A program made the translations under genes and the position numbers. Source: an uncultured bacterium (GTDB lineage: Bacteria > Zixibacteria > MSB-5A5 > CAIYYT01). Taken from it: a DNA stretch of 64,000 nucleotides. The notes under the pieces were generated by a model. The model did no database searches and was not told the DNA's origin. It saw nothing but the letters and a program-made list of their open reading frames with translations. Positions within the stretch are counted from its first letter, which is position 1. Each line of letters begins with the position of its first letter. The stretch is taken from NCBI GenBank assembly GCA_963726455.1, contig CAVSCK010000003.1, positions 288,001 to 352,000 on the forward strand, given 5' to 3'. Shown one piece after another: positions 168 to 60,645 of this stretch.

Positions 168-189
168 CTGATAGCGTCGCTAGCCCACG

Positions 190-787
190 GTGTGCGCGGC
201 GTACGTCCTCGCGCGCCGCAAATACGCCTGTGCGTGGCGTACGTCCTCGCCTGCCGCACCAGTAGTCACGCACGGCAGTGCGCCCGTGCGCGGCAGTCGT
301 CTTCGCCTGCCGCACCAGTAGTCACGCACGGCAGTGCACCCGTGCGCGGCAGTCGTCTTCGCCTGCCGCACGAGTAGTCACGCACGGCAGTGCACCCGTG
401 CGCGGCAGTCGTCTTCGCCTGCCGCACGAGTAGTCACGCACGGCAGTGCACCCGTGCGCGGCAGTCGTCCTCGCCTGCCGCACGAGTAGTCACGCACGGC
501 AGTGCACCCCTGCGCGGCGGTCGTCCTCGCCTGCCGCACCAGTAGTCACGCACGGCAGTGCACCCGTGCGCGGCAGTCGTCTTCGCCTGCCGCACCAGTA
601 GTCACGCACGGCAGTGCACCCGTGCGCGGCAGTCGTCTTCGCCTGCCGCACCAGTAGTCACGCACGGCAGTGCACCCGTGCGCGGCAGTCGTCCTCGCCT
701 GCCGCACGAGTAGTCACGCACGGCAGTGCACCCGTGCGCGGCAGTCGTCCTCGCCTGCCGCACGAGTAGTCACGCACGGCAGTGCGC
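190..787. repeat. Tandem array of a 56-bp REP-composite unit (9 full copies plus partials), preceded by variant REP copies
   Basis: Unit gtagtcacgcacggcagtgcacccgtgcgcggcagtcgtc(t/c)tcgcctgccgcac(c/g)a starts at 262, 318, 374, 430, 486, 542, 598, 654, 710, with a partial at 766. There are no unique spacers. Confidence 0.95.
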
Positions 788-793
788 TCTAAT

Positions 794-1376
794 TATAGCG
801 CGAATCATTACAATCCGCGATGTCAAAGACCAAGCGAACCTTTAAACGCGTGTTCCGGTGACGGATTCGCTCCGTTAGTCCGGCATGGATAGCTTAGTCG
901 TTGCCGTGTTGTCATCGGGGATTCCTGATCGGTAGAAGGTTGATTCACAAAACTCCCATTTTGCTCAGCCGCTAATCACCAGACCCACAGAGCCCTCCGG
1001 GGTGACCTTCGGTGCCGCAACCTGTGTTCTACTTATATGGGGTTTTGAGATTTATCCTCAGAAGGAGAGTAAGTGGTTGGGGGAGATGGAAGTGGGAACG
1101 TGGATGCTGGTGAAAGAGGTGGAAAAGAAGGTGATTGGAGGGAGAAAGAAAGTGAAAATATTTTTGAGAAATTCCGGCAGGTCACACACCGCGAGGAGAT
1201 GTAACACTCGAAGACAAGAGGTTAGGCGCGGCGCAGGACCTGCCGGAACGGGGAAAATATTTTGGCGGGTTTGTAGTGCTCTTGTTGGTAATTGCTCAGG
1301 TCAGGGTGAGAAGAATGAGCCGAGGGGAGCAGAAGTCGCCGGAAGTCCCCACTCGCTGAGTGGGGTACCGAGTGGC
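794..1376 (-). repeat. Conserved ~580-bp downstream arm, copy A
   Basis: Reverse-complement match to 51492-52637 (e.g. ttgctcagccgctaatcaccagacccaca.agccctccggggtgaccttcggtgccgcaacctg.gttctacttatatgggg). Confidence 0.9.
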
Positions 1377-1400
1377 AGAAAAAGTCTACGAACTGCTCAA

Positions 1401-2180
1401 CTAAATTGGGTGCTTGAGAATTATGTTGTCCACCAAGTCCTCGATGACACTCACGACTTTGCTTCGGTGAACTTCCACGGTAGAGGGATGAGCGCAAGTA
1501 TTCCGGATACCGAGTTTCTCATCAAGAAGTTTCCGGACGTCGTTAGTTATGACACCGGCCGAGCGAGCGACTTCGATAAACACGGATTCTTTCAAATCCG
1601 CGAAGTCGTCTTTCACGCTGATAGTAGTCTTTGCACAGTGATCCTTGCGCCTCGCAAGTGCTGCGTTGAACTCCGCGAGTTTGTGCTTGAGTATGAAGTC
1701 ATACAGATGATCTACGGTACCTGCCCACGCCATCACAATTGTCGCCCGGGGCGCATCCACCGCTAGGCACGAGGCGGCTTCAGCCATGAATTTCCGTTGA
1801 TTGTCGTCGCCAATTTTTGCGACAGTCTTCTTCAAATAGTTTAGAGCGTCAGCGATCATGGCATCGACCACTGCGGAACTAGGGCCCGTTCCTGACAAAT
1901 AGCTCTCGACCTCATCCAATCCAGGCATGTTAAGCGAGAAGGAGTCTCTTGCGCTTCCTCTCGCCAAAAGTGAGTTCTTCCCTTTGGCTAATAACCGGAG
2001 CTGAACTCTGAGGTCGGACGGCGGCTTGAGTAACCCGCGACAAACGTCTTCCATATCTGCTGCAGTGAATTCCACCATGCCTTTGTATTGGCGAAGATAA
2101 TAGGCGAGCAGGAGAATCTTCGATTTCCGCGAGAAATCCCGAAAATTGGGTATGCCTCTAAGAAATTCAAGCAGTGTCAT
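1401..2180 (-). CDS. wHTH + HEPN (DUF4145-like) putative RNase / defence protein
   Basis: 259 aa. C-terminal helical domain with EAASCL..DAPRATIVMAW and the RxxxxH motif RNTCAH. The N-terminal domain resembles the upstream gene product. Confidence 0.7.
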   Translation of the reverse strand: MTLLEFLRGIPNFRDFSRKSKILLLAYYLRQYKGMVEFTAADMEDVCRGLLKPPSDLRVQLRLLAKGKNSLLARGSARDSFSLNMPGLDEVESYLSGTGPSSAVVDAMIADALNYLKKTVAKIGDDNQRKFMAEAASCLAVDAPRATIVMAWAGTVDHLYDFILKHKLAEFNAALARRKDHCAKTTISVKDDFADLKESVFIEVARSAGVITNDVRKLLDEKLGIRNTCAHPSTVEVHRSKVVSVIEDLVDNIILKHPI

Positions 2181-2187
2181 GAATTCC

Positions 2188-2637
2188 TCACATGCTTGAG
2201 AGCGTTGAATCCGCGGACAGCGTAAGTGAGTACTTGCCGCGACTATGCATGCGAAGTAGTCCCTGCTTCACCGCATTCGAAAAATATTGGCTATGGATGT
2301 CCTTTGGTAGTCTCGCCTCTTTGCCCAACTTATTCACATCTTCACGGCTAAACGCAGACATGCCGCGATACACTTCGAGGTACTTTCCGAGGATCAGAAT
2401 TTGTGAGATTCCATCCTCCTTCCCCTTTTCGCGATAGAACTCAGCAGGAGTGGGTTCCTTTTCACCAGCGGGCGCAGAGGGTGGTTCAAGTATGTCTTGC
2501 TTGATCTTCGACGCGGGCGGGCGGGTGACCGCATCTTTCATACGCGAATAATAATCTGCCAACTGCGCTTTGATGAAATCATCTGAACCATCCAATTCGA
2601 TCTCATGTTCGCCGTGTTTGATCCTAATCTTGCTCAC
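2188..2637 (-). CDS. Hypothetical protein with predicted C-terminal winged-helix-like domain
   Basis: The likely start is GTG at 2637 after GGAGG (149 aa). N-terminal KIRIKHGEHEIELDGS strand module, Pro/Ala linker, then C-terminal EFYRE..QILILGKYLE..F...DV......KYSLTLSA. Confidence 0.7.
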   Translation of the reverse strand: MSKIRIKHGEHEIELDGSDDFIKAQLADYYSRMKDAVTRPPASKIKQDILEPPSAPAGEKEPTPAEFYREKGKEDGISQILILGKYLEVYRGMSAFSREDVNKLGKEARLPKDIHSQYFSNAVKQGLLRMHSRGKYSLTLSADSTLSSM

Positions 2638-2741
2638 CTGCAATCCTCCTCTTTTCCTTGTTGTTTCCAAGGCTGTCTTTGTGACTTCAGGATAGACCTA
2701 TTCACGAATTTCGCGTCTGGACAGCAGTCTAAGTGCATTTG

Positions 2742-2998
2742 CTCCTGACTCGACACTGGTCGATCCCTCCTATGGATTGTTAATGACAATATCGTCTTTA
2801 AGGTTGCGTTTCTGTTGAGGCGTGTCAAGTGCTATTTCAGTGTGGTAAACGATTCTGCAACAGGTCACAGTCGCAAGGCGCGAAGTGAGATCTGCCGTAA
2901 CAGTGAATCAGCCTGGATTCCCGCCTGCGCGGGAATGACATAGCTCCGGGACATACGAGATGATTCCGTCAGGAAAGGGTTCCTGACGGCGCACGAGT
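2742..2998 (-). promoter_or_regulatory. Conserved upstream arm, copy A: REPs, TTGACA -35 (2828-2823), palindrome ATTGT-N5-ACAAT (2776-2790), RBS + GTG
   Basis: Homologous to 48709-48963. The -35 is exact consensus; the -10 (AACCTT at 17-bp spacing) is weak. Confidence 0.6.
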
Positions 2999-48554: not shown

Positions 48555-48688
48555 CCCGTAGGAACACCCGTAGGGACACCCGTAGGGACACCCGTAGGGG
48601 CGCACGGCAGTGCGCCCAGTTTTACGTAGGTCGGCGTTCATGTTGTGTCAGGTCCTGCGCACGACGAAGTCGGGCGTGAGACCTGACA
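48555..48688. repeat. REP cluster: 12-bp tandem cccgtagg(g/a)aca, GTAG REP gtaggggcgcacggcagtgcgccc, gtcaggtc..gacctgac hairpin
   Basis: Direct inspection; the gcacggcagtgc core is shared with the 56-bp unit. Confidence 0.75.
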
Positions 48689-48876
48689 CTTTCATATTCG
48701 CGCCGTCAACTCGTGCGCTGTCAGGAACCCCTTCCTGACGGAACCATCTTGCATGTCCCGGAGCTATGTCATTCCCGCGAAGGCGGGAATCCAGGCTGAT
48801 TTCGTTTGCCGAGGGCCCGGCTCGCCCCTTTCGACTGTGACCTATTGCAAGATCGTTCATTACACCGAAATAACAC

Positions 48877-48951
48877 TTGACACGCCTCGACAAGAACGCA
48901 ACCTTAAAGGCGATATTGTCGTTGACAATCCATGGGAGGGATCACAAAGTG
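48877..48951 (+). promoter_or_regulatory. TTGACA -35 (48877-48882), weak -10 AACCTT, operator-like palindrome ATTGTC-gtt-GACAAT (48915-48929), GGAGG + GTG (48949)
   Basis: All elements are conserved in copy A. Confidence 0.6.
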
Positions 48952-49014
48952 TCAGAACCGGAGAGGTTCGACCCATTGGGACGCGTAGTCTTCTGACTTT
49001 AACAAGGGAGAATT

Positions 49015-49272
49015 ATGAACGAGGAGTTGTTATACTCGATTGATCGTAGTCTTAAGGCTCTGCTTGGGCTTATCGTTTCAATTCGCGACGACAAGCCTCT
49101 TTCACTACGCGAACGAATCGCACGACTGCACGATTTGGGATTTAAGCCAAAGGAGATCAGCGAGATCCTAGGGCGGACGGGAAAGTTTGTTAGTAAGGAA
49201 CTGTCAGAACTTCGCAAGATAAAGAGCAAAGGTGGTAAGAAGAATGGCAAAGGTGCAAAACAAAAAGACTAG
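49015..49272 (+). CDS. Small HTH protein
   Basis: RERIARLHDLGFKPKEISEILGRTGKFVSKELSELR; RBS GGGAG. Confidence 0.7.
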   Translation: MNEELLYSIDRSLKALLGLIVSIRDDKPLSLRERIARLHDLGFKPKEISEILGRTGKFVSKELSELRKIKSKGGKKNGKGAKQKD

Positions 49273-49450
49273 CCAAAAGCCGGAAAAACAGATCAAGCCC
49301 AGCACCACGACGGAGGACTTGTTACGTGACCTGATGATGATCCAACTCGGATTAGCTGGTGTATCTCAGGAAAATATCAGAACCATTGTCGGCGTCGACA
49401 ATAACCGTGTAAGTTGGATTGTACGACACGTCAGAAAGGGGGATAAATAG
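49244..49450 (+). CDS. Small HTH protein
   Basis: LLRDLMMIQLGLAGVSQENIRTIVGVDNNRVSWIV. Confidence 0.65.
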   Translation: MAKVQNKKTSQKPEKQIKPSTTTEDLLRDLMMIQLGLAGVSQENIRTIVGVDNNRVSWIVRHVRKGDK

Positions 49451-49451
49451 A

Positions 49452-49646
49452 ATGGCCGCCAAGAAAACGACACCAACAAAGAGAGTGCCCCAGGATGATC
49501 CAGACTACCTGCTGAACTATTTGGTGGCGTTAGAACTCTTTAAGCTTGGGCTGTCGCAGGTGGATATTGGAAAGCGTTTGCGTCTGCAGACGGCTATCGT
49601 CAACCAAATGCTCAAGGGCATTGATAGGAAGAAGCTCAATCAATGA
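49452..49646 (+). CDS. Small HTH protein
   Basis: LLNYLVALELFKLGLSQVDIGKRLRLQTAIVNQML; RBS AAAGGGG. Confidence 0.65.
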   Translation: MAAKKTTPTKRVPQDDPDYLLNYLVALELFKLGLSQVDIGKRLRLQTAIVNQMLKGIDRKKLNQ

Positions 49647-49780
49647 AATCTGAAAACAGAGTCAGAATCCTCATTTGGAGCAGGAAATGGTCTCGTCCAC
49701 GGAGTGACATAACACGGACTTTCGGTACACCGATCAAGACTGTTCGAACGCTATTAACCCCGAAAGGGTGTAAGGCGTAA
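49643..49780 (+). CDS. Unannotated 45-aa ORF, possibly HTH-like
   Basis: ATGA overlap with the previous stop and ends 1 nt before the next ATG; RSDITRTFGTPIKTVRTLL. Confidence 0.4.
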   Translation: MKSENRVRILIWSRKWSRPRSDITRTFGTPIKTVRTLLTPKGCKA

Positions 49781-49781
49781 T

Positions 49782-50498
49782 ATGGCTCGAGCTAGGCTTG
49801 ATCCTAAGTTGATGCAGAAGGTGGCACAGAAACTGAGGCTCGCCAAGAACCGAGTTAATGTCAAGATCAGCAAGAAGGCAAACAGGCTCGGGATATCCTC
49901 TGAAGCAGCTCTTGCCATCTTGGCGAAAGAACTTGGTATCGCTACCGGGGTATATCAGAGAAGACTTGACCCAACGATCCAGTCAGAGATCAGGATGGCG
50001 CTGCCTACCATAATGCCCTCTCCGAACATACCTCCACCTAGAGTAAATCTACGTCACAAATCCGGTGGAACCGCAGTCGGAAATCAGCGTACCGCATTAA
50101 AGGCCGCTGCTGAATATGTCATTCAAGACGAGGAACTTCGGTCCAGATGCACTGATCTACTTCTGGGTAAGAAGCACTTTGATAGAGCTGTGAATCAAGC
50201 GACGTTGGTTCTTGAAGATAGACTGCGACACAAAGCACAGCCAACAGCGCGACTGGTCGGCGAGAATCTAGCTGGGCATGCTATCAACAGCGATCTTGTA
50301 AAGACAGTATTGAAGGTGAGCGATAATCAGGACGAACAGAGAGGCATTTCAGAGATTGTCAGAGGCATCGTTCCAGCATTTCGCAACACCACGCATCACC
50401 ACCTAGTCGATAGTTTTACTCGCGAAGACGCATTGAGGGTGTGTGGGTTCATCGATGTATTGTTACGCATCATCGATAAGTCAACGAAAGTAAGGTAG
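49782..50498 (+). CDS. TIGR02391/Ymh-family HEPN protein with N-terminal helical domain
   Basis: HFDRAVNQATLVLEDRLR...LVG..L...A.....EQRG....RG...AFRNTTHH (RxxxxH). Confidence 0.8.
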   Translation: MARARLDPKLMQKVAQKLRLAKNRVNVKISKKANRLGISSEAALAILAKELGIATGVYQRRLDPTIQSEIRMALPTIMPSPNIPPPRVNLRHKSGGTAVGNQRTALKAAAEYVIQDEELRSRCTDLLLGKKHFDRAVNQATLVLEDRLRHKAQPTARLVGENLAGHAINSDLVKTVLKVSDNQDEQRGISEIVRGIVPAFRNTTHHHLVDSFTREDALRVCGFIDVLLRIIDKSTKVR

Positions 50499-50552
50499 AG
50501 TTTACGATTTTAGGGATCGCGAGCATGTGCTTTAGGTTCCGCAACAACCAGT

Positions 50553-51437
50553 ATGCCACAGAACGTTACTGACATTCGCTCTAATCTCAACGACCAGATT
50601 GCAAATGCTGCCAAGATCATTGGAAGGTCCAAACAAAGACAAATTGTGTTCAAAGAGATTTACAGAGGCAAGCAGAGAACCAAGACGATTGCGGAACTGG
50701 TGGATGCCACTGGATTAACAAATATCCGCGTTTTGCAGGAAGGAAGTCGCCTAGCACAGCATCAACTAGTTGAAAAGGTTAAGAATGGCTATCGTAAGGA
50801 CCCATTCTATTCGCTTCATTATCGAAGGATTCTTAACTTCGCTCAAAATCCCAATCGACTCAAGAGACTGCCGACTAAAGTCTCTCCCAATATTGCGTCG
50901 CAGAATGTCCGTGTCACTTTTCCTGCTACTGCGGCGAAGGCTATTCACATTACAATGGACGATATTGACTCTTTTAGCATGGTACGACAAGTAAAGATCT
51001 CGACTTCTGCAGTTGACGATCAAAAGCTTTATGAAGCTCACATCAAGTCAGCCGTGAAGAGCTTGATTGGCGAGTCGGGCAAATTCAAAGACTGGGGTGG
51101 CGAGAAGAATGACCTTTTCACGACAAAGGTCAAAATTAAGGGGAGGCGCAGACCAGCGGCATTTGCATTCAAGGGTAGAGCAACGAAGGGAACCCTCACT
51201 CTTGACAAAATGGGTAAACGTGCGGATCAGGTAATTAGACTTTTCTCTGATTCGGTAGCAGAAGTGTACTTGATTGTCTACCAAGGGCAGATAGCTCCGG
51301 TGATATTAGATCAGATGAAGGCTCTAGCCGTCGCAAAAGCTATCGGTGGTGAGAATATCTACTATGGAGTGCTCGATGGGGATGATCTAAGGCGACTCAA
51401 AGCTGCTTACCCCAGCTTCTTTAAGGTGCATAAGTGA
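50553..51437 (+). CDS. Putative HTH + PD-(D/E)xK-like nuclease
   Basis: N-terminal KTIAELVDATGLTNIRVLQ; C-terminal E...K....GE...KDWGGEKNDLFT....AFAFKG...MGK.ADQV.RLF. Confidence 0.55.
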   Translation: MPQNVTDIRSNLNDQIANAAKIIGRSKQRQIVFKEIYRGKQRTKTIAELVDATGLTNIRVLQEGSRLAQHQLVEKVKNGYRKDPFYSLHYRRILNFAQNPNRLKRLPTKVSPNIASQNVRVTFPATAAKAIHITMDDIDSFSMVRQVKISTSAVDDQKLYEAHIKSAVKSLIGESGKFKDWGGEKNDLFTTKVKIKGRRRPAAFAFKGRATKGTLTLDKMGKRADQVIRLFSDSVAEVYLIVYQGQIAPVILDQMKALAVAKAIGGENIYYGVLDGDDLRRLKAAYPSFFKVHK

Positions 51438-51491
51438 AGGGAAAATTGCGTTGCCTCATGCGCTAATTCCAGTACCGTAGGTCAGGAGCCC

Positions 51492-52637
51492 GCCACGGTA
51501 CCCCACTCAGCGGGTGGGAACTTCCGGCGACTACTGCTCCCCTCAACTTTTTCATCTCACTCTGACCTGAGCAACTACCAACAAGACCACTACAAGCCCC
51601 CAAAATATTTTTCCCCGTTCCGGCACTTCCTGCGCCGCGCCTAACCTCTTGTCTGCGAGTGTCACATCTCATTGCGGCGGGTGAACTGCCGGAATTTCTC
51701 AAAAATATTTTCACTTTTTTTCTCCCTCCTATCACCCTCATTTCGTCTCCTGTGACTCCATCCACGTTTCTACTATCCTCTCCCCCAACCACTTACCCTC
51801 CTTTCGAGGATAAATCTCAAGACCCCATATAAGTAGAACGCAGGTTGCGGCACCGAAGGTCACCCCGGAGGGCTTTGTGGGTCTGGTGATTAGCGGCTGA
51901 GCAAAATGGGAGTTTTGTGAATCAACCTTCTACCGATCAGGAATCCCCGACGACAACACGGTTACGACTAAGCTATCCATGCCGAACTCTAACCGTGTCG
52001 TCCCGGGCATACTCGTCCTTCGCCGTGGTGAGTGAGTCTGTCGCTGTAAACCTTGTGGTTCGCGCTGTCGGATACCCGCCGTCCCCCCGACACGCTTTGA
52101 TGTACCGCGCCGTCAGGAATCCTTTCCTGACGGAACAGGTACTCCACAGCTTGCTGTGGGTGTACTCGCCACATCATCGCACCGGTGCCCCATCCGCTTG
52201 CGGTGGGTTTCGTATGTCTTCCTTACCGATTGTCTTCGGTTTGGCTCACGCCTGTCAAGACGGTCTCTATCGACGAACAGTTCACACCGTCGGAGGGAAC
52301 CCAGTAATAGAGCGTATCGCGACAACCGTGAATCCGATCAACTTCGCTACCAGGGCGAACAACGGCGAAGTTGGTGGCTCAATGGAGGAGCGTCCCCTTA
52401 TCCCCGCAACACGTTCGGCGTTTCCGGGTCTCGGCAGTGATCAAGTCCCCGATCCAGCTGGAGCATCGACTTCTCGTGGCGGTGCAGGCGCCATATCGGC
52501 CTGCTATGACGGCACAATGCCGCAGCACGAGATATAAGATACCCAGGCCGGACTAACGGAGTTAATCCGTCACCGGAACACGCGTTTAAAGGTTCGCTTG
52601 GTCTTTGACATCGCGAATTGTAATGATTCGCGCCATA
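51492..52637 (+). repeat. Conserved downstream arm, copy B, with an extra 566-bp segment (51985-52550)
   Basis: Homologous to 794-1376; GCCG occurs at 51981-51984 and 52547-52550. Confidence 0.9.
51917..52537 (+). pseudogene. ORF of uncertain status starting in the conserved arm (GGGAG + GTG), 206 aa; 41-aa version in copy A (823-948, minus)
   Basis: Start MNQPSTDQESP is shared by both copies. It contains an internal REP and no recognisable domain. Confidence 0.3.
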
Positions 52638-52699
52638 TACGTTTGACACGTCTGCCATGACGTGACGCCTGGAGCGCCCGTAGTCTAGCCCCTTGTGGG

Positions 52700-52780
52700 C
52701 GTTTGCGGCGCACGAGGACGTACGCCGCGCACGGAACTGGACACGGCAGGCGAGGACGACTGCCGCGCACAAAGCCGCGC
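52700..52780. repeat. REP pair (gcggcgcacgaggacgtacgccgcgcac; cggcaggcgaggacgactgccgcgcac)
   Basis: Reverse complements of the REPs at 190-260 and in the 56-bp array. Confidence 0.8.
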
Positions 52781-52790
52781 ACAGCGAAGG

Positions 52791-54122
52791 TCAGGCGTCG
52801 ATCTTCTTTTTGAAGGTCGGGATGAGGTCGGCGATTTTGACGCGGGATTGTTCCATCGTGTCGCGGTCGCGGATCGTGACGGTCTCATCCTCTTTGGTCT
52901 GGCCGTCGATGGTTATGCAATAAGGCGTGCCGATTTCATCCATGCGGCGGTAACGTCGACCGACCGCACCGGAATCATCATAGAATGCCTTGAAGTGTTC
53001 TTTGAGCTCGTGGAAGACCTTCATCGCGATTTCGGGCATGCCATCCTTGTTAACCAGCGGGAAGACGGCGACCTTGACCGGCGCGATTTTGGGTGAGAAT
53101 TTCAGCACCACGCGCGTTTCGCCTTTGACTTCTTCTTCCTGATAGGCGTCGACCAACAGCACCAACAGCGTGCGGTCACAGCCGGCGGAGGTTTCGATGA
53201 TGTAGGGAATGAATTTCGTCTTGGTCGGTTCGTCGAAATAGCTTAAATCCTTGCCGGTGGCCTCGGCGTGACGGCTGAGGTCGAAATCGGTGCGGTTGTG
53301 GATGCCTTCGAGTTCTTTCCAGCCGAACGGGAATTCGTATTCGATGTCGTAGGCCTTTTTGGCGTAATGCGCGAGTTCGTCCTTGCCATGTTCGTGATAA
53401 CGGAGCTTGTCCTTGTTGATGCCGAGTTCGTAGTACCATTTCAGGCGTTCGGCCTTCCAGTATTCGAACCACTGGTCGTCATCGAACGGATTGATAAAGA
53501 ACTGCATTTCCATCTGTTCGAATTCGCGCGTGCGGAAAATAAAATTGCCGGGCGTGATTTCGTTGCGGAAGGCCTTGCCGATCTGGGCAATGCCAAACGG
53601 CACTTTCTGGCGCGACGGGCCCATGACATTGAGGAAGTTGACATAGATGCCCTGTGCTGTCTCGGGACGCATGTAGACGACGGCGGATGAATCCTCGACT
53701 GGGCCCATGAAGGTTTTGAACATCAGGTTGAACTGGCGCGGTTCGGTGAGTTCGCCGCCGCATTCCAACGGTGATTTCGAGGGTTTCATCGGGCAGCGCG
53801 CGGTTTCCAGTTGATCGGCGCGGAAACGGGCTTTGCATTTTTTGCAGTCGACCATGGGATCGGTGAAGTTGGCGACATGGCCGGAGGTTTCCCAGACTTT
53901 GGGGTGCATGAGAATCGCGGCGTCAATGCCTTCGACATCGTCGCGTTTCTGGGTCATGGCCTTCCACCAGAAATCCTTGAGGTTGCGTTTGAGTTCAACG
54001 CCGTAAGGGCCGTAATCCCAGCAACTGCCGAGGCCGCCGTAAATCTCCGACGACTGAAATACAAAGCCGCGCCGTTTGCACAGGGAAACTATCTGCTCCA
54101 TTCTGTCAACTGTCTTCGCCAC
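52791..54122 (-). CDS. glyQS: Glycine--tRNA ligase, homodimeric type
   Basis: KRRGFVFQSSEIYGG, MRPETAQGI, AFRNEITPGNFIFRTREFEQME, GRRYRRMDEIGTP. GTG start after GGAGG. Confidence 0.97.
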   Translation of the reverse strand: MAKTVDRMEQIVSLCKRRGFVFQSSEIYGGLGSCWDYGPYGVELKRNLKDFWWKAMTQKRDDVEGIDAAILMHPKVWETSGHVANFTDPMVDCKKCKARFRADQLETARCPMKPSKSPLECGGELTEPRQFNLMFKTFMGPVEDSSAVVYMRPETAQGIYVNFLNVMGPSRQKVPFGIAQIGKAFRNEITPGNFIFRTREFEQMEMQFFINPFDDDQWFEYWKAERLKWYYELGINKDKLRYHEHGKDELAHYAKKAYDIEYEFPFGWKELEGIHNRTDFDLSRHAEATGKDLSYFDEPTKTKFIPYIIETSAGCDRTLLVLLVDAYQEEEVKGETRVVLKFSPKIAPVKVAVFPLVNKDGMPEIAMKVFHELKEHFKAFYDDSGAVGRRYRRMDEIGTPYCITIDGQTKEDETVTIRDRDTMEQSRVKIADLIPTFKKKIDA

Positions 54123-56705: not shown

Positions 56706-56875
56706 TTAGACTGCGAATTTATCGAGCATTACGATACCCAGCAACATAAAATTTAAACCGTTACTTTAAGGGGTTGCGGCGGCGAACGATGGGCGCAAGT
56801 TGTTGTTATGCTGTGAGATAGAGGGACGTTCCGGGGTTGCCCGTCTGCGGTTAAGGCGGATATGGTTGGAGAAAA

Positions 56876-57716
56876 CGGGACAAACAGGAATGCTCATCCT
56901 ACTGGGGCGCCGAAAATGCGGCAGGGATGTTCACTGCGGACTTACGCGCTCCCTCACCCCCGGCCCCTCTCCCAAAGGGCGAGGGGAGAAACGAAATCGA
57001 CAAACAGGAATGTTCATCCTACTGAGGCGCCGAAAGTGCGGCAAGGGTGTTTCCTGCCGACTTGCGCGCTCCCTCACCCCCGGCCCCTCTCCCAAAAGGA
57101 GAGGAGAGGAATTGGGATCTTCGTCTTGCTGGAGCGCCGAAAGTGCAGCAAGGATGTTTCCTGCGGACTTACGCGCTCCCTCACCTCCGGCCCCTCTCCC
57201 AAAGGGCGAGGGGAGGAATGAAATCGACAAACGGGAATGTTCATCCTACTGGGGCGCCGAAAGTGCGGCAAGGGTGTTTCCTGCCGACTTGCGCGCTCCC
57301 TCACCCCCGGCCCCTCTCCCAAAGGGCGAGGGGAGGAATGAAATCGACAAACGGGAATGTTCATCCTACTGAGGCGCCGAAAGTGCGGCAAAGATGTTTC
57401 CTGCGGACTTACGCGCTCCCTCACCCCCGGCCCCTCTCCCAAAGGGCGAGGGGAGAAATGAAATCGACAAACAGGAATGTTTATCCTACTGAGGCGCCGA
57501 AAGTGCAACAAGGATGTTTCCTGCGGACTTACGCGCTCCCTCACCCCCGGCCCCTCTCCCAAAGGGCGAGGGGAGGAATGAAATCGACAAACGGGAATGT
57601 TCGTCCTGCTGGGATTGTGGTGGGACGTCGCGGCAGGCGAGGACGACTGCCGCGCACGAACTGAACGGACAATCGCCGCGCACGAGGGGTTTGGCGCGCT
57701 CCCTCACCCCCCGGCC
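56876..57716. repeat. Tandem array of ~120-bp composite REP units (BIME-like), left of blaI
   Basis: Unit = gacaaac(a/g)ggaatgttcatcctact + gcgccgaaagtgc + cctcacccccggcccctctcccaaagggcgagggga. Starts at 56879, 56999, (one shorter variant), 57226, 57346, 57466, 57586. Confidence 0.93.
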
Positions 57717-59665: not shown

Positions 59666-60645
59666 TTACGCGCTCCCTCACCTCCTGCCCCTCTCCCACG
59701 GTGAGAGGGGAGAAATTGGGATCTTCGTCTTGCTGGGGCACCGATAGTGCGGCGAGGTTATTTCTTGAGGCCCGCGCGCTCCCTCACCCCCGGCCCCTCT
59801 CCCAAAGGGCGAGGGGAGAAATGAAATCGACAAACGGGAATGTTCGTCCTACTGGGGCGCGGAAAGTGCGGCAAGGGTGTTTCCTGCGGACTTACGCGCT
59901 CCCTCACCCCCGGCCCCTCTCCCAAAGGGCGAGGGGAGAAATTGGGATCTTCGTCTTGCTGGGGCACCGATAGTGCGGCGAGGTTATTTCTTGAGGCCCG
60001 CGCGCTCCCTCACCCCCGGCCCCTCTCCCAAAGGGCGAGGGGAGGAATTGGGATCTTCGTCTTGCTGGGGCACCGATAGTGCGGCGAGGTTATTTCTTGA
60101 GGCCCGCGCGCTCCCTCACCCCCGGCCCCTCTCCCAAAGGGCGAGGGGAGAAATGAAATCGACAAACAGGAATGTTCATCCTACTGGGGTTGTGGTGGGA
60201 CGTCGCGGCAGGCGAGGACGACTGCCGCGCACGAGGGGATTGGCGCGCTCCCTCACCTCCTGCCCCTCTCCCACGGTGAGAGGGGAGTTAGTAGGATAAA
60301 CATTCTTGTTTGTCCCGTTCGAGCGTGAAGTTCAGTTGAGGAGCAATGGACAAACAGGAATGTTCGTCCTACTGGGGTTGTGGTGGGACGTCGCGGCAGG
60401 CGAGGACGACTGCCGTGCACGGGGGATTGATGCGCACCCTCACCCCCCGCCCCTCTCCCAAAGGGCGAGGGGAGAAATGAAATCGACAAACAGGAATGTT
60501 CATGCTGCTGGGGGTGTGGTGGGACGTCGCGGCAGGCGAGGACGACTGCCGTGCACGGGGGATTGATGCGCACTTTCACCCCCGGCCCCTCTCTCAAAGG
60601 GCGAGGGGAGGAATGAAATCGACAAACGGGAATGTTCATCCTACT
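59666..60645. repeat. Second array of composite REP units, right of the M56 gene
   Basis: About eight cctcacccc..ctctccc..gagggga hairpins mixed with gacaaac..cctact and cggcaggcgaggacgactgccg REPs, in the same orientation as the left array. Confidence 0.92.

What the first reader, a model, noticed from the sequence alone, without database searches (positions are those of the whole stretch)
51492..51984. Conserved ~580-bp non-coding downstream arm: candidate structured RNA or recombination/replication site
Seen: homology starts at a hairpin right after the cargo (CCCCACTC-agc-GAGTGGGG in A; a G-U variant in B). It includes two AAAATATTTT palindromes about 99 bp apart, a pyrimidine-rich tract and CCCCATATAAGTAGA. 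A nearly identical ~190-bp GC-rich block (51790-51984 vs 881-1075) follows, and the arm ends at a hairpin CGCGAAT-N7-ATTCGCG (about 52612-52632). Conservation is uneven, which suggests selection on sub-elements. Inference: either an ncRNA/leader, or DNA sites for a trans-acting enzyme. Subterminal hairpins are what HUH (IS200/IS605, RAYT) transposases recognise.
Basis: partly seen in the sequence, partly recalled or inferred. Interest (0 to 1): 0.75.

Follow-up and report, generated by a model that had tools for sequence, protein, structure and literature searches.

The report
Multicopy large structured RNA-like element
The conserved "arm" is mostly one copy of a roughly 0.83-kb non-coding element that occurs many times in one genus of uncultured Zixibacteria, keeps an RNA-type fold through compensating base changes and matches no described RNA family, so it looks like a new large structured RNA carried on a repeated, probably mobile, piece of DNA.

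Summary
51496-51808 is a terminator-type hairpin plus a CT-rich spacer found only in this genome. 51823-52637 is a ~0.83-kb core element. The copy at 794-1106 (minus strand) is the same core with a 546-bp internal deletion, and a third copy follows a Hachiman defence operon on another contig.

The core is multicopy only in this genus. A covariance model found 2, 16, 14 and 11 matches in the four genus genomes and none in 17 other family genomes. A phylum sample of 101 genomes gave matches in 2, both of this genus. Ninety-three more copies or relics came from public genomes and metagenomes.

The sequence is non-coding and matches nothing in Rfam. Pairing is kept in 95.8% of cells over 71 pairs, with 87 double-sided changes against 30 in shuffles. 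Many invariant G-U pairs place the fold on the + strand. A promoter-like box precedes it. GTAG-tagged hairpins flank it, and HUH (RAYT-like) genes are present in trans.

Best reading: a new large structured RNA gene on a non-autonomous repeat. It is not a part of the cargo. Transcription and the way it moves are untested.

The parts
51496..51520 (+). Terminator-type hairpin (GGTACCCCAC...GTGGG class) that closes the upstream cargo operon. Homology between the copies starts here.
   Evidence: The same hairpin type lies inside variable loops of other copies and after a gene at G000 C3:~387.3 kb. The typed 23-nt motif occurs 18 times in the genome at up to 4 mismatches.
51521..51808 (+). CT-rich spacer with two AAAATATTTT palindromes (51602-51611, 51702-51711). 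It is specific to this genome and is not part of the core element.
   Evidence: Shared only with the copy at 1107-1345 and, from 51611 on, with the third copy. It is not found in relatives. It recurs without the core at G000 C3:387387-387485. No frame is open in all three copies.
51800..51822 (+). Promoter-like box (..TTTCGAGGATAAATCTC..). In relatives it reads TTTTTGTAG-N-GATAAATC, or as a GTAG-containing hairpin TTTTTGTAGCGCCTCACTGCAAAAG.
   Evidence: Conservation among copies with unrelated flanks begins at this box. A 27-nt match with 2 mismatches lies about 55 nt upstream of a protein gene's start at G000 C4:1003609. The sigma-70 scan finds nothing here, so the promoter function is inferred.
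51823..52103 (+). Core element, 5' domain. It is highly conserved, with covarying helices and an expandable first hairpin.
   Evidence: Alignments A2 and A4. Pair counts are: 71 pairs, 95.8% paired, 87 double-sided cells against 30.1 in shuffles.
52104..52265 (+). Variable region closed by the stem GCTTTGATGT / ACATCATCGC. It holds REP-like hairpins (for example 52113-52135 GCCGTCAGGAA..TTCCTGACGG). It is followed by a conserved hairpin with a short U-rich tail (52189-52207).
   Evidence: length and content differ between copies while the closing stem is kept.
52266..52423 (+). Core element, 3' domain, with invariant blocks GGAACCCAGTAATAGAGCGTA and ATGGAGGAGCGTCCCCTT and an 11-bp covarying helix.
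   Evidence: Alignment A5 and pair counts. Model R1 was built on it and scored this copy at 168.8 bits.
52424..52637 (+). Variable stretch, then the conserved 3' terminal block (52561-52637) with TTGACAT and the hairpin CGCGAAT-N7-ATTCGCG (52612-52632). The element ends at ..GCGCCATA.
   Evidence: The three own copies diverge right after ..ATTCGCGC(C/T)ATA.
794..1106 (-). Second copy of the core with a 546-bp internal deletion (equivalent to 51989-52534). Probably a decayed copy.
   Evidence: Model R1 finds only two own-genome matches, and this copy is not among them.
1107..1370 (-). Second copy of the CT-rich spacer and the terminator-type hairpin.
   Evidence: (88% to 51496-51744).
48709..48990 (+). 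Shared 5' arm ahead of the cargo: two REP-like hairpins, then a conserved leader module (TTGACAC.., GGATATTGTCGTTGACAATCC, GGGAGGGA, a covarying hairpin).
   Evidence: The 20-nt leader motif occurs in the own genome only here and at 2774-2793 (minus strand). It also occurs near element copies in L037, L084, L104, L126 (twice) and L137.
2752..2998 (-). Second copy of the 5' arm and leader.
49015..51437 (+). Cargo between the arms (context only): small ORFs, a Hypoth_Ymh protein (49782-50498) and a 294-aa protein (50553-51437).
   Evidence: PADLOC gives only weak hits: PD-Lambda-3_B at 5.7e-6 and Csa3 at 4e-4.
1401..2670 (-). Different cargo between the arms of the second copy (context only): proteins of 160 aa and 259 aa.
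   Evidence: No family was found at E<=0.001. At the looser E<=0.01 the only hit was a sub-threshold AbiEi_4 (E 0.009).

Best explanation
The arm is a composite of two modules.

The first 315 bp (51496-51808) are the cargo operon's terminator hairpin plus a genome-specific CT-rich intergenic spacer.

The rest (about 51800-52637) is one copy of a ~0.83-kb non-coding element that is repeated in this Zixibacteria genus and was found nowhere else among the genomes searched. I read this element as a gene for a large structured RNA on the + strand. It would be transcribed from its own promoter-like box just downstream of the neighbouring gene's terminator. The conserved core folds into long-range and local helices. 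Peripheral loops tolerate insertions of REP hairpins.

The DNA that carries it behaves as a non-autonomous repeat. It has no gene of its own, sharp ends, many decayed copies, unrelated flanks around near-identical bodies, and positions at synteny breaks and in variable, defence-rich intergenic regions. It is bounded by GTAG-tagged hairpins, so the most likely mover is a RAYT-type HUH (Y1) enzyme acting in trans.

The cargo is not part of the element. Leader-cargo cassettes and element copies share the same hot spots, and the repeated element gives a long homology arm for swapping neighbouring genes.

Shown: repetition, restriction to the genus, absence of coding, conserved pairing on the + strand, and the boundaries.

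Inferred: transcription, promoter function, mobility by a RAYT-type enzyme, and a role in cassette exchange.

What the RNA does is unknown. My guess is that it serves the element's own propagation or maintenance.
For: **Repetition and distribution**
- BLAST found the element in 4 of 61 related genomes, all of genus g1 (3 of 3 besides the own genome) and 0 of 57 others.
- Model R1 gave 2, 16, 14 and 11 matches in G000-G003, and 0 in 17 other genomes of the family. In a phylum sample it hit 2 of 101 genomes, in 1 of 67 genera.
- An exact 21-mer found 49 loci in genome contigs, of which 2 are chance matches, and 46 loci in metagenome contigs.
- In all there are 101 occurrences of the 21-mer, 2 of them chance. 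Sixty-seven share the main body and about 15 are truncated.

**Non-coding**
- No Pfam family was found for the 206-aa and 301-aa frames.
- Frames differ between copies.
- Indels of 5, 16-60 and more nucleotides lie inside the sequence.

**Structure**
- 5' domain: 59 sequences, 71 pairs, 95.8% paired. Twelve pairs show double-sided changes. There are 87 such cells against 30.1 +/- 4.1 in shuffles (0 of 500 reach it) and 9-38 when partners are slid. The covariation score is 0.133 against 0.101 shuffled and at most 0.058 slid.
- 3' domain: 31 sequences, 16 pairs, 94.6% paired. There are 8 double-sided cells against 2.0 in shuffles (0 of 500).
- Invariant G-U pairs (for example 15-377, 30-347, 22-355, 53-62, 359-374) and C-G/U-G alternation fit the + strand only.
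- Insertions sit in hairpin loops.

**Constraint**
- Paralogues within a genome are 82-98% identical (mean 0.898).
- Own copies against all others average 0.795. Neighbouring coding genes against relatives are 79-85% identical at the DNA level.

**Own promoter**
- Homology between copies with unrelated flanks starts at the box.
- The same box stands before a protein gene.

**Mobility-like behaviour**
- L065 and L070 bodies are 97.5% identical but have unrelated upstream flanks.
- Seven loci have both flanks in G000. In 6 of them the two flanks map to distant places.
- A syntenic site in two genomes has different genes before the element.

**Possible mover**
- Y1_Tnp hits number 4, 8, 6 and 3 in G000-G003.
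- GTAG lies in the 5' box of nearly all copies, and GTAG plus a palindrome follows the 3' hairpin in 11 of the 37 rows printed.
- GTAG-tagged REPs as RAYT substrates: abstract of PMC3733652.
Against: - There is no expression evidence of any kind.
- The sigma-70 scan finds no promoter at the box.
- The 3' hairpin has no U-tract, so neither the start nor the end of a transcript is defined.
- Thermodynamic z-scores are modest and do not favour the + strand: -2.2 for + and -3.1 for -.
- Three consensus folds disagree on the long-range helices. Those helices hardly vary, so they are untested.
- The counted structure was partly derived from the same sequences. The copies are also related, so the shuffle control overstates significance.
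- All copies come from one genus, so diversity is limited.
- No clean empty site or target-site duplication was found. The one collinear case (L137) is not clean.
- There are no identical copies within a genome, and nearest neighbours lie in the same genome in only 13 of 30 cases. Recent transposition is therefore not shown.
- HUH enzymes act on single-stranded DNA, in which G-T pairs are also tolerated. The strand argument does not by itself separate RNA from top-strand DNA.
Confidence: 0.5

Rival explanations
1. It is a DNA-level element only. The conserved hairpins are single-stranded-DNA recognition and cleavage sites for a trans-acting HUH (RAYT / IS200-IS605-type) enzyme, or a recombination site. 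No functional RNA is made.
For: Y1_Tnp genes are present in all four genus genomes. GTAG-tagged hairpins lie at or near both ends, and there is a subterminal 3' hairpin. The surroundings are rich in REPs. No expression data could be obtained.
Against: Known HUH substrates need only short terminal hairpins (recalled knowledge). Here pairing is conserved in at least 87 pairs spread over about 450 nt of interior, including helices that span 60-370 alignment columns. About 600 nt of interior sequence is held at coding-like identity. A promoter-like box sits at the 5' end.
Confidence: 0.18
2. It is a resident (not mobile) family of ncRNA genes, or 3' elements, that work together with the variable, often defensive, genes upstream. 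It might act as a regulator, sensor or stabiliser shared by many cassettes.
For: The element is on the same strand as the upstream gene in 51 of 75 cases. Thirteen of the 75 upstream genes are clear restriction or defence types (Hachiman, type I/IIG R-M, MTase-REase fusions, KAP, AAA_13, AbiEi, TIR, HEPN), and 29 of 75 have no Pfam family. The leader-cargo-element arrangement recurs. Paralogues are old and conserved rather than a recent burst. The copy next to proS is kept in G003.
Against: Many upstream genes are housekeeping genes, such as PEPCK, GMP synthase, RlmL, signal peptidase and peptidases. Twenty-four of 75 are on the opposite strand. A terminator or REP hairpin and a separate promoter-like box lie between the gene and the element. 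Copies decay freely. Defence genes and repeats tend to gather in the same variable regions in any case.
Confidence: 0.15
3. It is a non-autonomous relative of IS110-family elements. The structured RNA would be an oversized bridge-like guide, and the element would be moved by IS110 recombinases encoded elsewhere.
For: IS110 DEDD domains are found in G001 (4), G002 (1) and G003 (1), which carry 11-16 element matches. None is found in G000, which has 2 intact copies. An IS110 copy is inserted exactly at TTGTAG|GTCAAAACC in a REP inside an element copy, and the element's own junctions also read ..TTGTAG|. IS110 elements use a structured RNA from their non-coding end (abstracts of PMC11208160 and PMC11208158).
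Against: The element shows no sequence similarity to the non-coding ends of 7 IS110 loci beyond adjacent fragments. No recombinase gene sits next to intact copies. The element is about 4 times the roughly 180 nt I recall for a bridge RNA. The copy-number correlation rests on four related genomes. The IS110 insertion is explained by targeting of REPs.
Confidence: 0.1
4. It is a known ribozyme or retroelement RNA in disguise (an ORF-less group II intron, especially the class that inserts after terminators), or a decayed protein gene.
For: It is about 0.8 kb, has no ORF, is multicopy, and lies after terminator-type hairpins, mostly in the sense orientation.
Against: Rfam gave no match for the whole window at gathering score, none for 48600-52800 at E<=5, and none for 9 further copies at E<=1. 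No RVT_1 was found in any of the four genomes. No Pfam family fits the longest frames.
Confidence: 0.03

Closest known systems
HEARO / IscB omega-RNA and other large 'ornate' bacterial ncRNAs (OLE, GOLLD, ROOL, raiA)
   Same: A large (over 500 nt), intricately paired non-coding sequence with invariant blocks. Like HEARO it is present in many copies per genome, often without any adjacent gene, and it looks mobile. The class properties are recalled.
   Different: No Rfam model matches it. No TnpB-type Zn-ribbon was found in the genomes. It is confined to one genus. It has its own box and GTAG-tagged ends. Expression is unknown.
GTAG-tagged REPs / REPINs mobilised by RAYT (HUH Y1) transposases; IS200/IS605 non-autonomous derivatives
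   Same: It is intergenic, lies mostly downstream of genes, and is bounded by GTAG-bearing palindromes. Y1 genes are present in trans (abstract of PMC3733652).
   Different: REPs are 20-40 bp (that abstract), and I recall REPINs as about 100 bp. This element is about 830 bp with a conserved, covarying interior that such elements do not need. The REPs here also invade its loops as separate units.
IS110-family elements with bridge RNA
   Same: A structured RNA encoded in mobile DNA. The family targets REPs, and the TTGTAG junction motif is shared with an IS110 insertion seen here.
   Different: There is no adjacent recombinase, no similarity to IS110 ends and no IS110 gene in the own genome. The element is much longer.
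ORF-less bacterial group II introns (class C type insertion after terminators)
   Same: Similar size, no ORF, many copies, and a position just after terminator hairpins in the sense orientation.
   Different: There is no domain V/VI or D1-D4 match and no reverse transcriptase in four genomes.
Integron gene cassettes with attC
   Same: Variable, often defensive, promoter-dependent cargo is followed by a conserved structured site whose single strand folds.
   Different: The element is about 830 nt, while I recall attC as 57-141 nt. Copies are dispersed singly rather than in arrays next to an integrase. The element also follows housekeeping genes. An integron integrase was not searched for.

Membership tests
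Any Rfam 15 family (4227 models) | A covariance-model score at or above the family's gathering score | tested here: not met
   There were 0 matches in the whole window at gathering score. There were 0 at E<=5 in 48600-52800 on both strands. In 10 loci holding 9 further copies, only two noise hits appeared, far below gathering score.
Group II intron (ORF-less / class C) | Catalytic domain V/VI and D1-D4 architecture | tested here: not met
   No Intron_gpII or group-II-D1D4 match.
Group II intron (ORF-less / class C) | An intron-encoded or trans reverse transcriptase in the genome | tested here: not met
   RVT_1 was found in 0 of 4 genus genomes. The control genomes gave hits.
Group II intron (ORF-less / class C) | Insertion just downstream of a terminator hairpin, in the sense orientation | tested here: inconclusive
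   Hairpins precede most copies. The element is on the same strand as the upstream gene in 51 of 75 cases.
REP / REPIN / IS200-IS605-type element moved by an HUH Y1 enzyme | A Y1 (RAYT/TnpA) gene available in the genome | tested here: met
   Y1_Tnp hits above the cut-off: 4, 8, 6 and 3 in G000-G003.
REP / REPIN / IS200-IS605-type element moved by an HUH Y1 enzyme | Terminal or subterminal palindromes with a GTAG tag at the ends | tested here: inconclusive
   The 5' box holds GTAG, and in one variant it lies within an 8-bp hairpin. The 3' hairpin is followed by GTAG in 11 of the 37 rows printed, while other rows read TTGCAG or ATCATA or lack the 3' half of the hairpin. The own copies have no GTAG at the 3' end.
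REP / REPIN / IS200-IS605-type element moved by an HUH Y1 enzyme | Small size (REP 20-40 bp) with no conserved interior | tested here: not met
   The element is about 830 bp with a conserved, covarying interior. The REP size is from the abstract of PMC3733652.
IS110-family element / bridge RNA | A DEDD/serine recombinase gene next to the RNA-coding end | tested here: not met
   Only L142 has one beside a copy. There the IS is inserted into a REP inside the element, and that copy is truncated. None is present in the own genome.
IS110-family element / bridge RNA | Similarity to IS110 non-coding ends | tested here: not met
   BLAST with word size 7 against 7 IS110 loci found only adjacent element fragments.
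IS110-family element / bridge RNA | Loops complementary to the target and to the donor ends | not tested
   The true ends and targets are not defined well enough.
TnpB / IscB omega-RNA (HEARO) | An associated RuvC nuclease gene, and the HEARO fold | tested here: not met
   The Cas12f1-like_TNB domain was found in 0 of 4 genomes. There is no HEARO match. IscB-specific domains were not searched.
Integron attC | An adjacent IntI integrase and arrays of short attC sites | not tested
   No IntI search was run. The dispersed single copies and the size argue against it.

The most novel reading that the evidence does not exclude
The element is a new class of large (~0.8 kb) structured RNA that is the working core of its own mobile element. 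In this reading the RNA fold is required for propagation, for example by guiding or scaffolding a trans-encoded HUH (RAYT) or IS110-type enzyme to GTAG-tagged REP targets. That would explain why dozens of gene-less copies stay under structural selection. It would also make the element a driver of gene-cassette turnover in Zixibacteria defence islands.
Probability: 0.15. Interest if true: 0.85.

Novelty: new variant of a known kind. Interest (0 to 1): 0.66.

Why it matters
Bacterial non-coding RNAs above about 500 nt with conserved folds are few, and several of them later proved to be parts of new machinery. HEARO, which I recall became the IscB guide RNA, is one example.

Here a candidate phylum known only from metagenomes carries 11-16 copies per genome of an ~0.83-kb element. 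The element has no gene of its own and is conserved about as well as coding DNA. It keeps its pairing and fits no described family.

If it is transcribed, it adds a new large RNA class with many natural variants for structure work. If its fold serves mobility, it would link REP/RAYT or IS110 biology to a large RNA.

It also matters for annotation. The copies mark synteny breaks and variable, defence-rich spots, and they break short-read assemblies: many contigs end inside the element.

Tried and rejected
- **Rfam.** Searched at gathering score and at permissive E-values on the window and on 10 loci. Nothing was found.
- **Expression.** No RNA holder, and no run of any kind, was listed for 50900-52800.
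- **Thermodynamic stability.** z is -2.2 for the + strand and -3.1 for the - strand. This does not discriminate, so I did not use it.
- **Global consensus folding.** Three runs gave three different long-range architectures. I kept only the helices seen plus hand-checked local ones, and I rely on the helices that actually vary.
- **Listing all possible helices.** A brute-force list of helices at 93% or more pairing was useless, because most columns never vary. Mutual information was dominated by subfamily structure.
- **Coding tests.** No Pfam hit for the 206-aa frame (51917-52537) or the 301-aa frame in the third copy. No frame is open in all three copies of the CT-rich spacer.
- **Retroelement and TnpB readings.** No RVT_1 and no TnpB Zn-ribbon in four genomes.
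- **Empty-site search.** L139's lyase is a paralogue, not the orthologue, so it gives no junction. Six of 7 two-flank loci are not collinear with G000. The seventh (L137) has other DNA at the site.
- **Downstream of truncated copies.** Of the 13 ORFs scanned downstream of truncated copies, only L142 gave a mobility enzyme, an IS110. L137's ORF of equal length is unrelated.
- **CM search over the phylum.** The first attempt got no answer. It was repeated on the family and on 100 phylum genomes.
- **Earlier notes of this scan.** They held nothing on this feature.
- **Literature.** The term pair 'Zixibacteria' + 'noncoding RNA' gave one unrelated paper. A search on large ncRNA terms listed only known classes. 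I found no description of this element. Supplements were not consulted.
Full report
**What is at the coordinates**

The window holds two inverted copies of a non-coding block:
- 1122-1370 with 51496-51744 (249 nt, 88%)
- 877-1106 with 51759-51988 (230 nt, 93%)
- 794-896 with 52535-52637 (103 nt, 93%)

A second, shorter pair lies on the far side of two different gene sets: 2752-2998 with 48709-48953.

The 1142-bp copy at 51496-52637 is the full form. The copy at 794-1370 lacks the equivalent of 51989-52534. A third copy in the same genome (G000 C4:1513703-1514980) keeps that stretch. That third copy lies directly downstream of HamA and HamB, with PADLOC E-values of 1e-112 and 0.

**The arm is composite**

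Only about 51810-52637 recurs in other genomes. The CT-rich stretch 51496-51808 carries the hairpin and the two AAAATATTTT. It is shared only among this genome's copies. It also appears, without any core, after another gene at G000 C3:387.3-387.5 kb, and homology there stops about 10-25 nt before the point where the core begins in the three copies. No reading frame is open in all three copies of this spacer.

**Distribution**

- BLAST of 51492-51988 matched 4 of 61 related genomes: the own genome and all 3 others of the genus. It matched none of the 57 others.
- Covariance model R1 was built on the 158-nt 3' domain. It gave 2, 16, 14 and 11 matches in G000-G003 and none in the 17 other genomes of the family.
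- In a sample of 101 genomes from 67 genera of the phylum, R1 matched 2 genomes, both of this genus.
- An exact 21-mer from the 5' domain found 49 loci in the species-representative genome collection. Two of these (L063, L064) match only the word itself, and L086 is a contig end labelled as another phylum from the same sediment. It also found 46 loci in metagenome contigs.
- Record titles shown and earlier notes of this scan place the organism among uncultured Zixibacteria.
- Of 101 occurrences of the word (2 of them chance), 67 share the main body. About 15 are relics that diverge after 40-90 nt, at different points.
- Many contigs of the fragmented assemblies end inside the element.

**Not coding, not a known RNA**

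The longest frames are 206 aa at 51917-52537 and 301 aa in the third copy. Neither has a Pfam family, and frames are not conserved between copies. Copies differ by indels of 5 nt and by inserted hairpins of 16-125 nt.

Rfam 15 gave nothing for the window at gathering score. It gave nothing at E<=5 for 48600-52800, and only two noise hits for 10 further loci.

**Conserved pairing**

*5' domain.* I took the 67 main-body copies plus two variant copies. Nine lacked the 3' anchor motif. I dropped one more (L082), which has a large internal deletion. That left 59 distinct sequences. The structure has 71 pairs. It combines the RNAalifold consensus of a 28-sequence subset with hand-checked local helices. 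The counts are:

| Measure | Observed | Shuffled | Partners slid 1-3 columns |
|---|---|---|---|
| Cells forming a standard pair | 95.8% | 93.8% | 32-50% |
| Pairs with double-sided change | 12 | 9.3 | 5-9 |
| Cells with double-sided change | 87 | 30.1 +/- 4.1 (0 of 500 reach it) | 9-38 |
| Covariation score | 0.133 | 0.101 | at most 0.058 |

The varying helices are:
- the expandable first hairpin;
- the three-part stem at alignment columns 254-268/305-319 (for example pair 264-309: AU 37, GC 13, CG 2, UA 2, GU 2);
- a small optional hairpin;
- the stem at 383-388/404-409.

The long-range helices 1-3 are almost invariant. They are therefore untested, and three folding runs disagree on them.

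*3' domain.* Thirty-six windows were found. I dropped five that were truncated or carried an insertion, which left 31. Sixteen pairs are 94.6% paired. There are 8 double-sided cells against 2.0 in shuffles, and 0 of 500 shuffles reach that. The own-genome subfamily carries ATCAACTTCGC/GCGAAGTTGGT where the others have ATCGACCTCGC/GCGATGTCGAT.

*Strand.* Several pairs are invariant G-U, and many alternate C-G with U-G. On the complementary strand these would be A-C mismatches, so the fold belongs to the + strand.

*Caveats.* The sequences are related, and part of the structure came from them. The shuffle numbers are therefore not probabilities.

**Constraint**

In the 276 well-occupied columns of the 5' domain:
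- Paralogues within a genome are 82-98% identical (mean 0.898).
- Copies from different genomes average 0.876.
- The nearest neighbour lies in the same genome in 13 of 30 cases.
- The own copies are 97.8% alike and average 0.795 to all others.

Flanking coding genes are 79-85% identical to the relatives at the DNA level. A gene-less sequence kept at that level in many old paralogues is under selection.

**Ends and surroundings**

*5' end.* Homology between copies with unrelated flanks begins at a box about 45 nt before the core. The box has two forms: TTTTTGTAG..GATAAATC, and a hairpin form TTTTTGTAGCGCCTCACTGCAAAAG. In this genome only ..GAGGATAAATC.. remains. A 27-nt match to the first form lies about 55 nt upstream of a protein gene's start in a divergent intergenic region, which also holds an AAAATATTTT. 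I therefore read the box as a promoter. The sigma-70 scan does not see one.

*Upstream.* Terminator or REP hairpins of at least five classes lie upstream. These are independent repeats with tens of copies in the own genome.

*3' end.* The element ends in ..TTGACATCGCGAAT-N7-ATTCGCGCCATA. In 11 of the 37 rows printed, TTGTAG or a close variant plus another palindrome follows. About ten copies keep only the 5' half of that hairpin.

*GTAG tag.* GTAG-tagged palindromes are the REP superfamily thought to be moved by RAYT enzymes (abstract of PMC3733652). Y1_Tnp-type genes number 4, 8, 6 and 3 in G000-G003.

*Other enzymes.* No reverse transcriptase and no TnpB domain was found. IS110 recombinase domains occur in G001-G003 (4, 1, 1) but not in G000. 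In L142 an IS110 copy sits exactly at TTGTAG|GTCAAAACC of a REP that had entered the element's first hairpin. IS110 ends share nothing with the element.

**Relation to the cargo**

Of the 101 pattern hits I dropped those with under 900 nt upstream, the two chance hits and duplicates. Seventy-eight remained, and 75 of them had an upstream ORF of at least 140 aa. Of these 75:
- 51 lie on the element's strand.
- 13 are clear restriction or defence types.
- 29 have no Pfam family.
- The rest include PEPCK, GMP synthase, RlmL, proteases and transporters.

So the element is not tied to one cargo, but it is enriched in variable regions.

The shared 5' arm of the two window copies contains an ~85-nt leader. 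In order it holds TTGACAC, a spacer, GGATATTGTCGTTGACAATCC, GGGAGGGA and a hairpin that covaries. This leader recurs ahead of different small defence-type genes near element copies: HEPN/PDC-M34B in L137, TIR in L126 and a TPR protein in L037. In the own genome it occurs only at the two window copies.

Evidence that neighbourhoods change:
- At a site syntenic between two relatives, the gene just before the element differs (a kinase against a beta-propeller protein). Homology resumes 42 nt before the core.
- Seven relatives' loci have both flanks in G000. In 6 of them the two flanks map far apart.
- L065 and L070 have 97.5% identical bodies but unrelated sequence upstream of the box.

Together this fits a repeat that moves, or is recombined, independently of its neighbours, and that offers long homology for exchanging what lies beside it. 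It does not prove transposition. I found no clean empty site and no target duplication.

**Conclusion**

The finding is real and more interesting than a local arm. Its core is a member of an undescribed, genus-restricted, multicopy ~0.83-kb element whose + strand fold is under selection.

I put about 0.5 on the full reading: a large structured RNA gene with its own promoter, on a non-autonomous repeat probably moved by RAYT-type enzymes. The rest is divided among a DNA-only site, a resident cargo-linked RNA, an IS110-dependent element, and known ribozymes or decayed genes.

Expression could not be examined because no run was listed. Searches of the held literature listed no description of this element.

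Noticed in passing
window 48865-48990 (+) and 2715-2850 (-); also L037:7264-7390, L104, L126 (two), L137:526-617, L084: A conserved ~85-nt leader precedes different small defence-type genes: TTGACAC.., the imperfect palindrome GGATATTGTCGTTGACAATCC, GGGAGGGA, then a hairpin with compensatory changes. In L126 two such leaders stand in tandem around a TIR gene. It looks like a shared regulatory 5' UTR or operator for swappable cassettes.
   Followed up: partly
window 175-841; related units at 52660-52790 and 60205-60248: There is a tandem array of about ten 56-bp units (GTGCGCGGCAGTCGTCCTCGCCTGCCGC...) right after the 3' end of the deleted copy. The same unit follows the third copy and enters element loops in relatives. 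The typed 28-nt part occurs 48 times in the genome at up to 4 mismatches.
   Followed up: partly
window 56767-57713, 59669-60189 and 60157-60616: Three further direct-repeat families with periods of about 120 and 136 bp. They were not examined.
   Followed up: no
window 794-2998 and 48709-52637: The two leader-cargo-element units are inverted repeats about 46-50 kb apart, with up to 93% identity over several hundred bp. Recombination between them could invert the intervening segment. In another genus member a cargo-plus-element block next to proS has the opposite orientation.
   Followed up: partly
L142:1103-2563 (metagenome contig): An IS110-family element (353-aa DEDD + Transposase_20 protein) is inserted at TTGTAG|GTCAAAACC of a GTAG-tagged REP. 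This fits the REP targeting of this IS family, which I recall rather than tested.
   Followed up: yes
G000 C4:1509989-1513592 (L043:9989-13592): A complete Hachiman system (HamA 334 aa, HamB 845 aa) lies directly upstream of the third element copy.
   Followed up: yes
G000 C3:387300-387560 (L005:1310-1560): The terminator hairpin, AAAATATTTT and CT-rich spacer of the arm recur here between two co-directional genes, without the core element. This may be the spacer's ancestral state, or the remnant of a lost copy.
   Followed up: partly
L093-L095 (proS orthologues in G001-G003): the genome search reported 4 TGA stops (in two genomes also 1 TAG) 'inside' the proS matches of the three genus relatives, yet gave an open frame of 514 aa. 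The own gene has no such stops. I did not work out whether this is an artefact of how stops are counted.
   Followed up: no
window 49782-50498 and 50553-51437: The cargo includes a Hypoth_Ymh-domain protein (Pfam 1.8e-16; weak PADLOC PD-Lambda-3_B) and a 294-aa protein with only sub-threshold winged-helix/Csa3-like hits. This may be an undescribed two-gene defence or toxin-antitoxin pair.
   Followed up: partly
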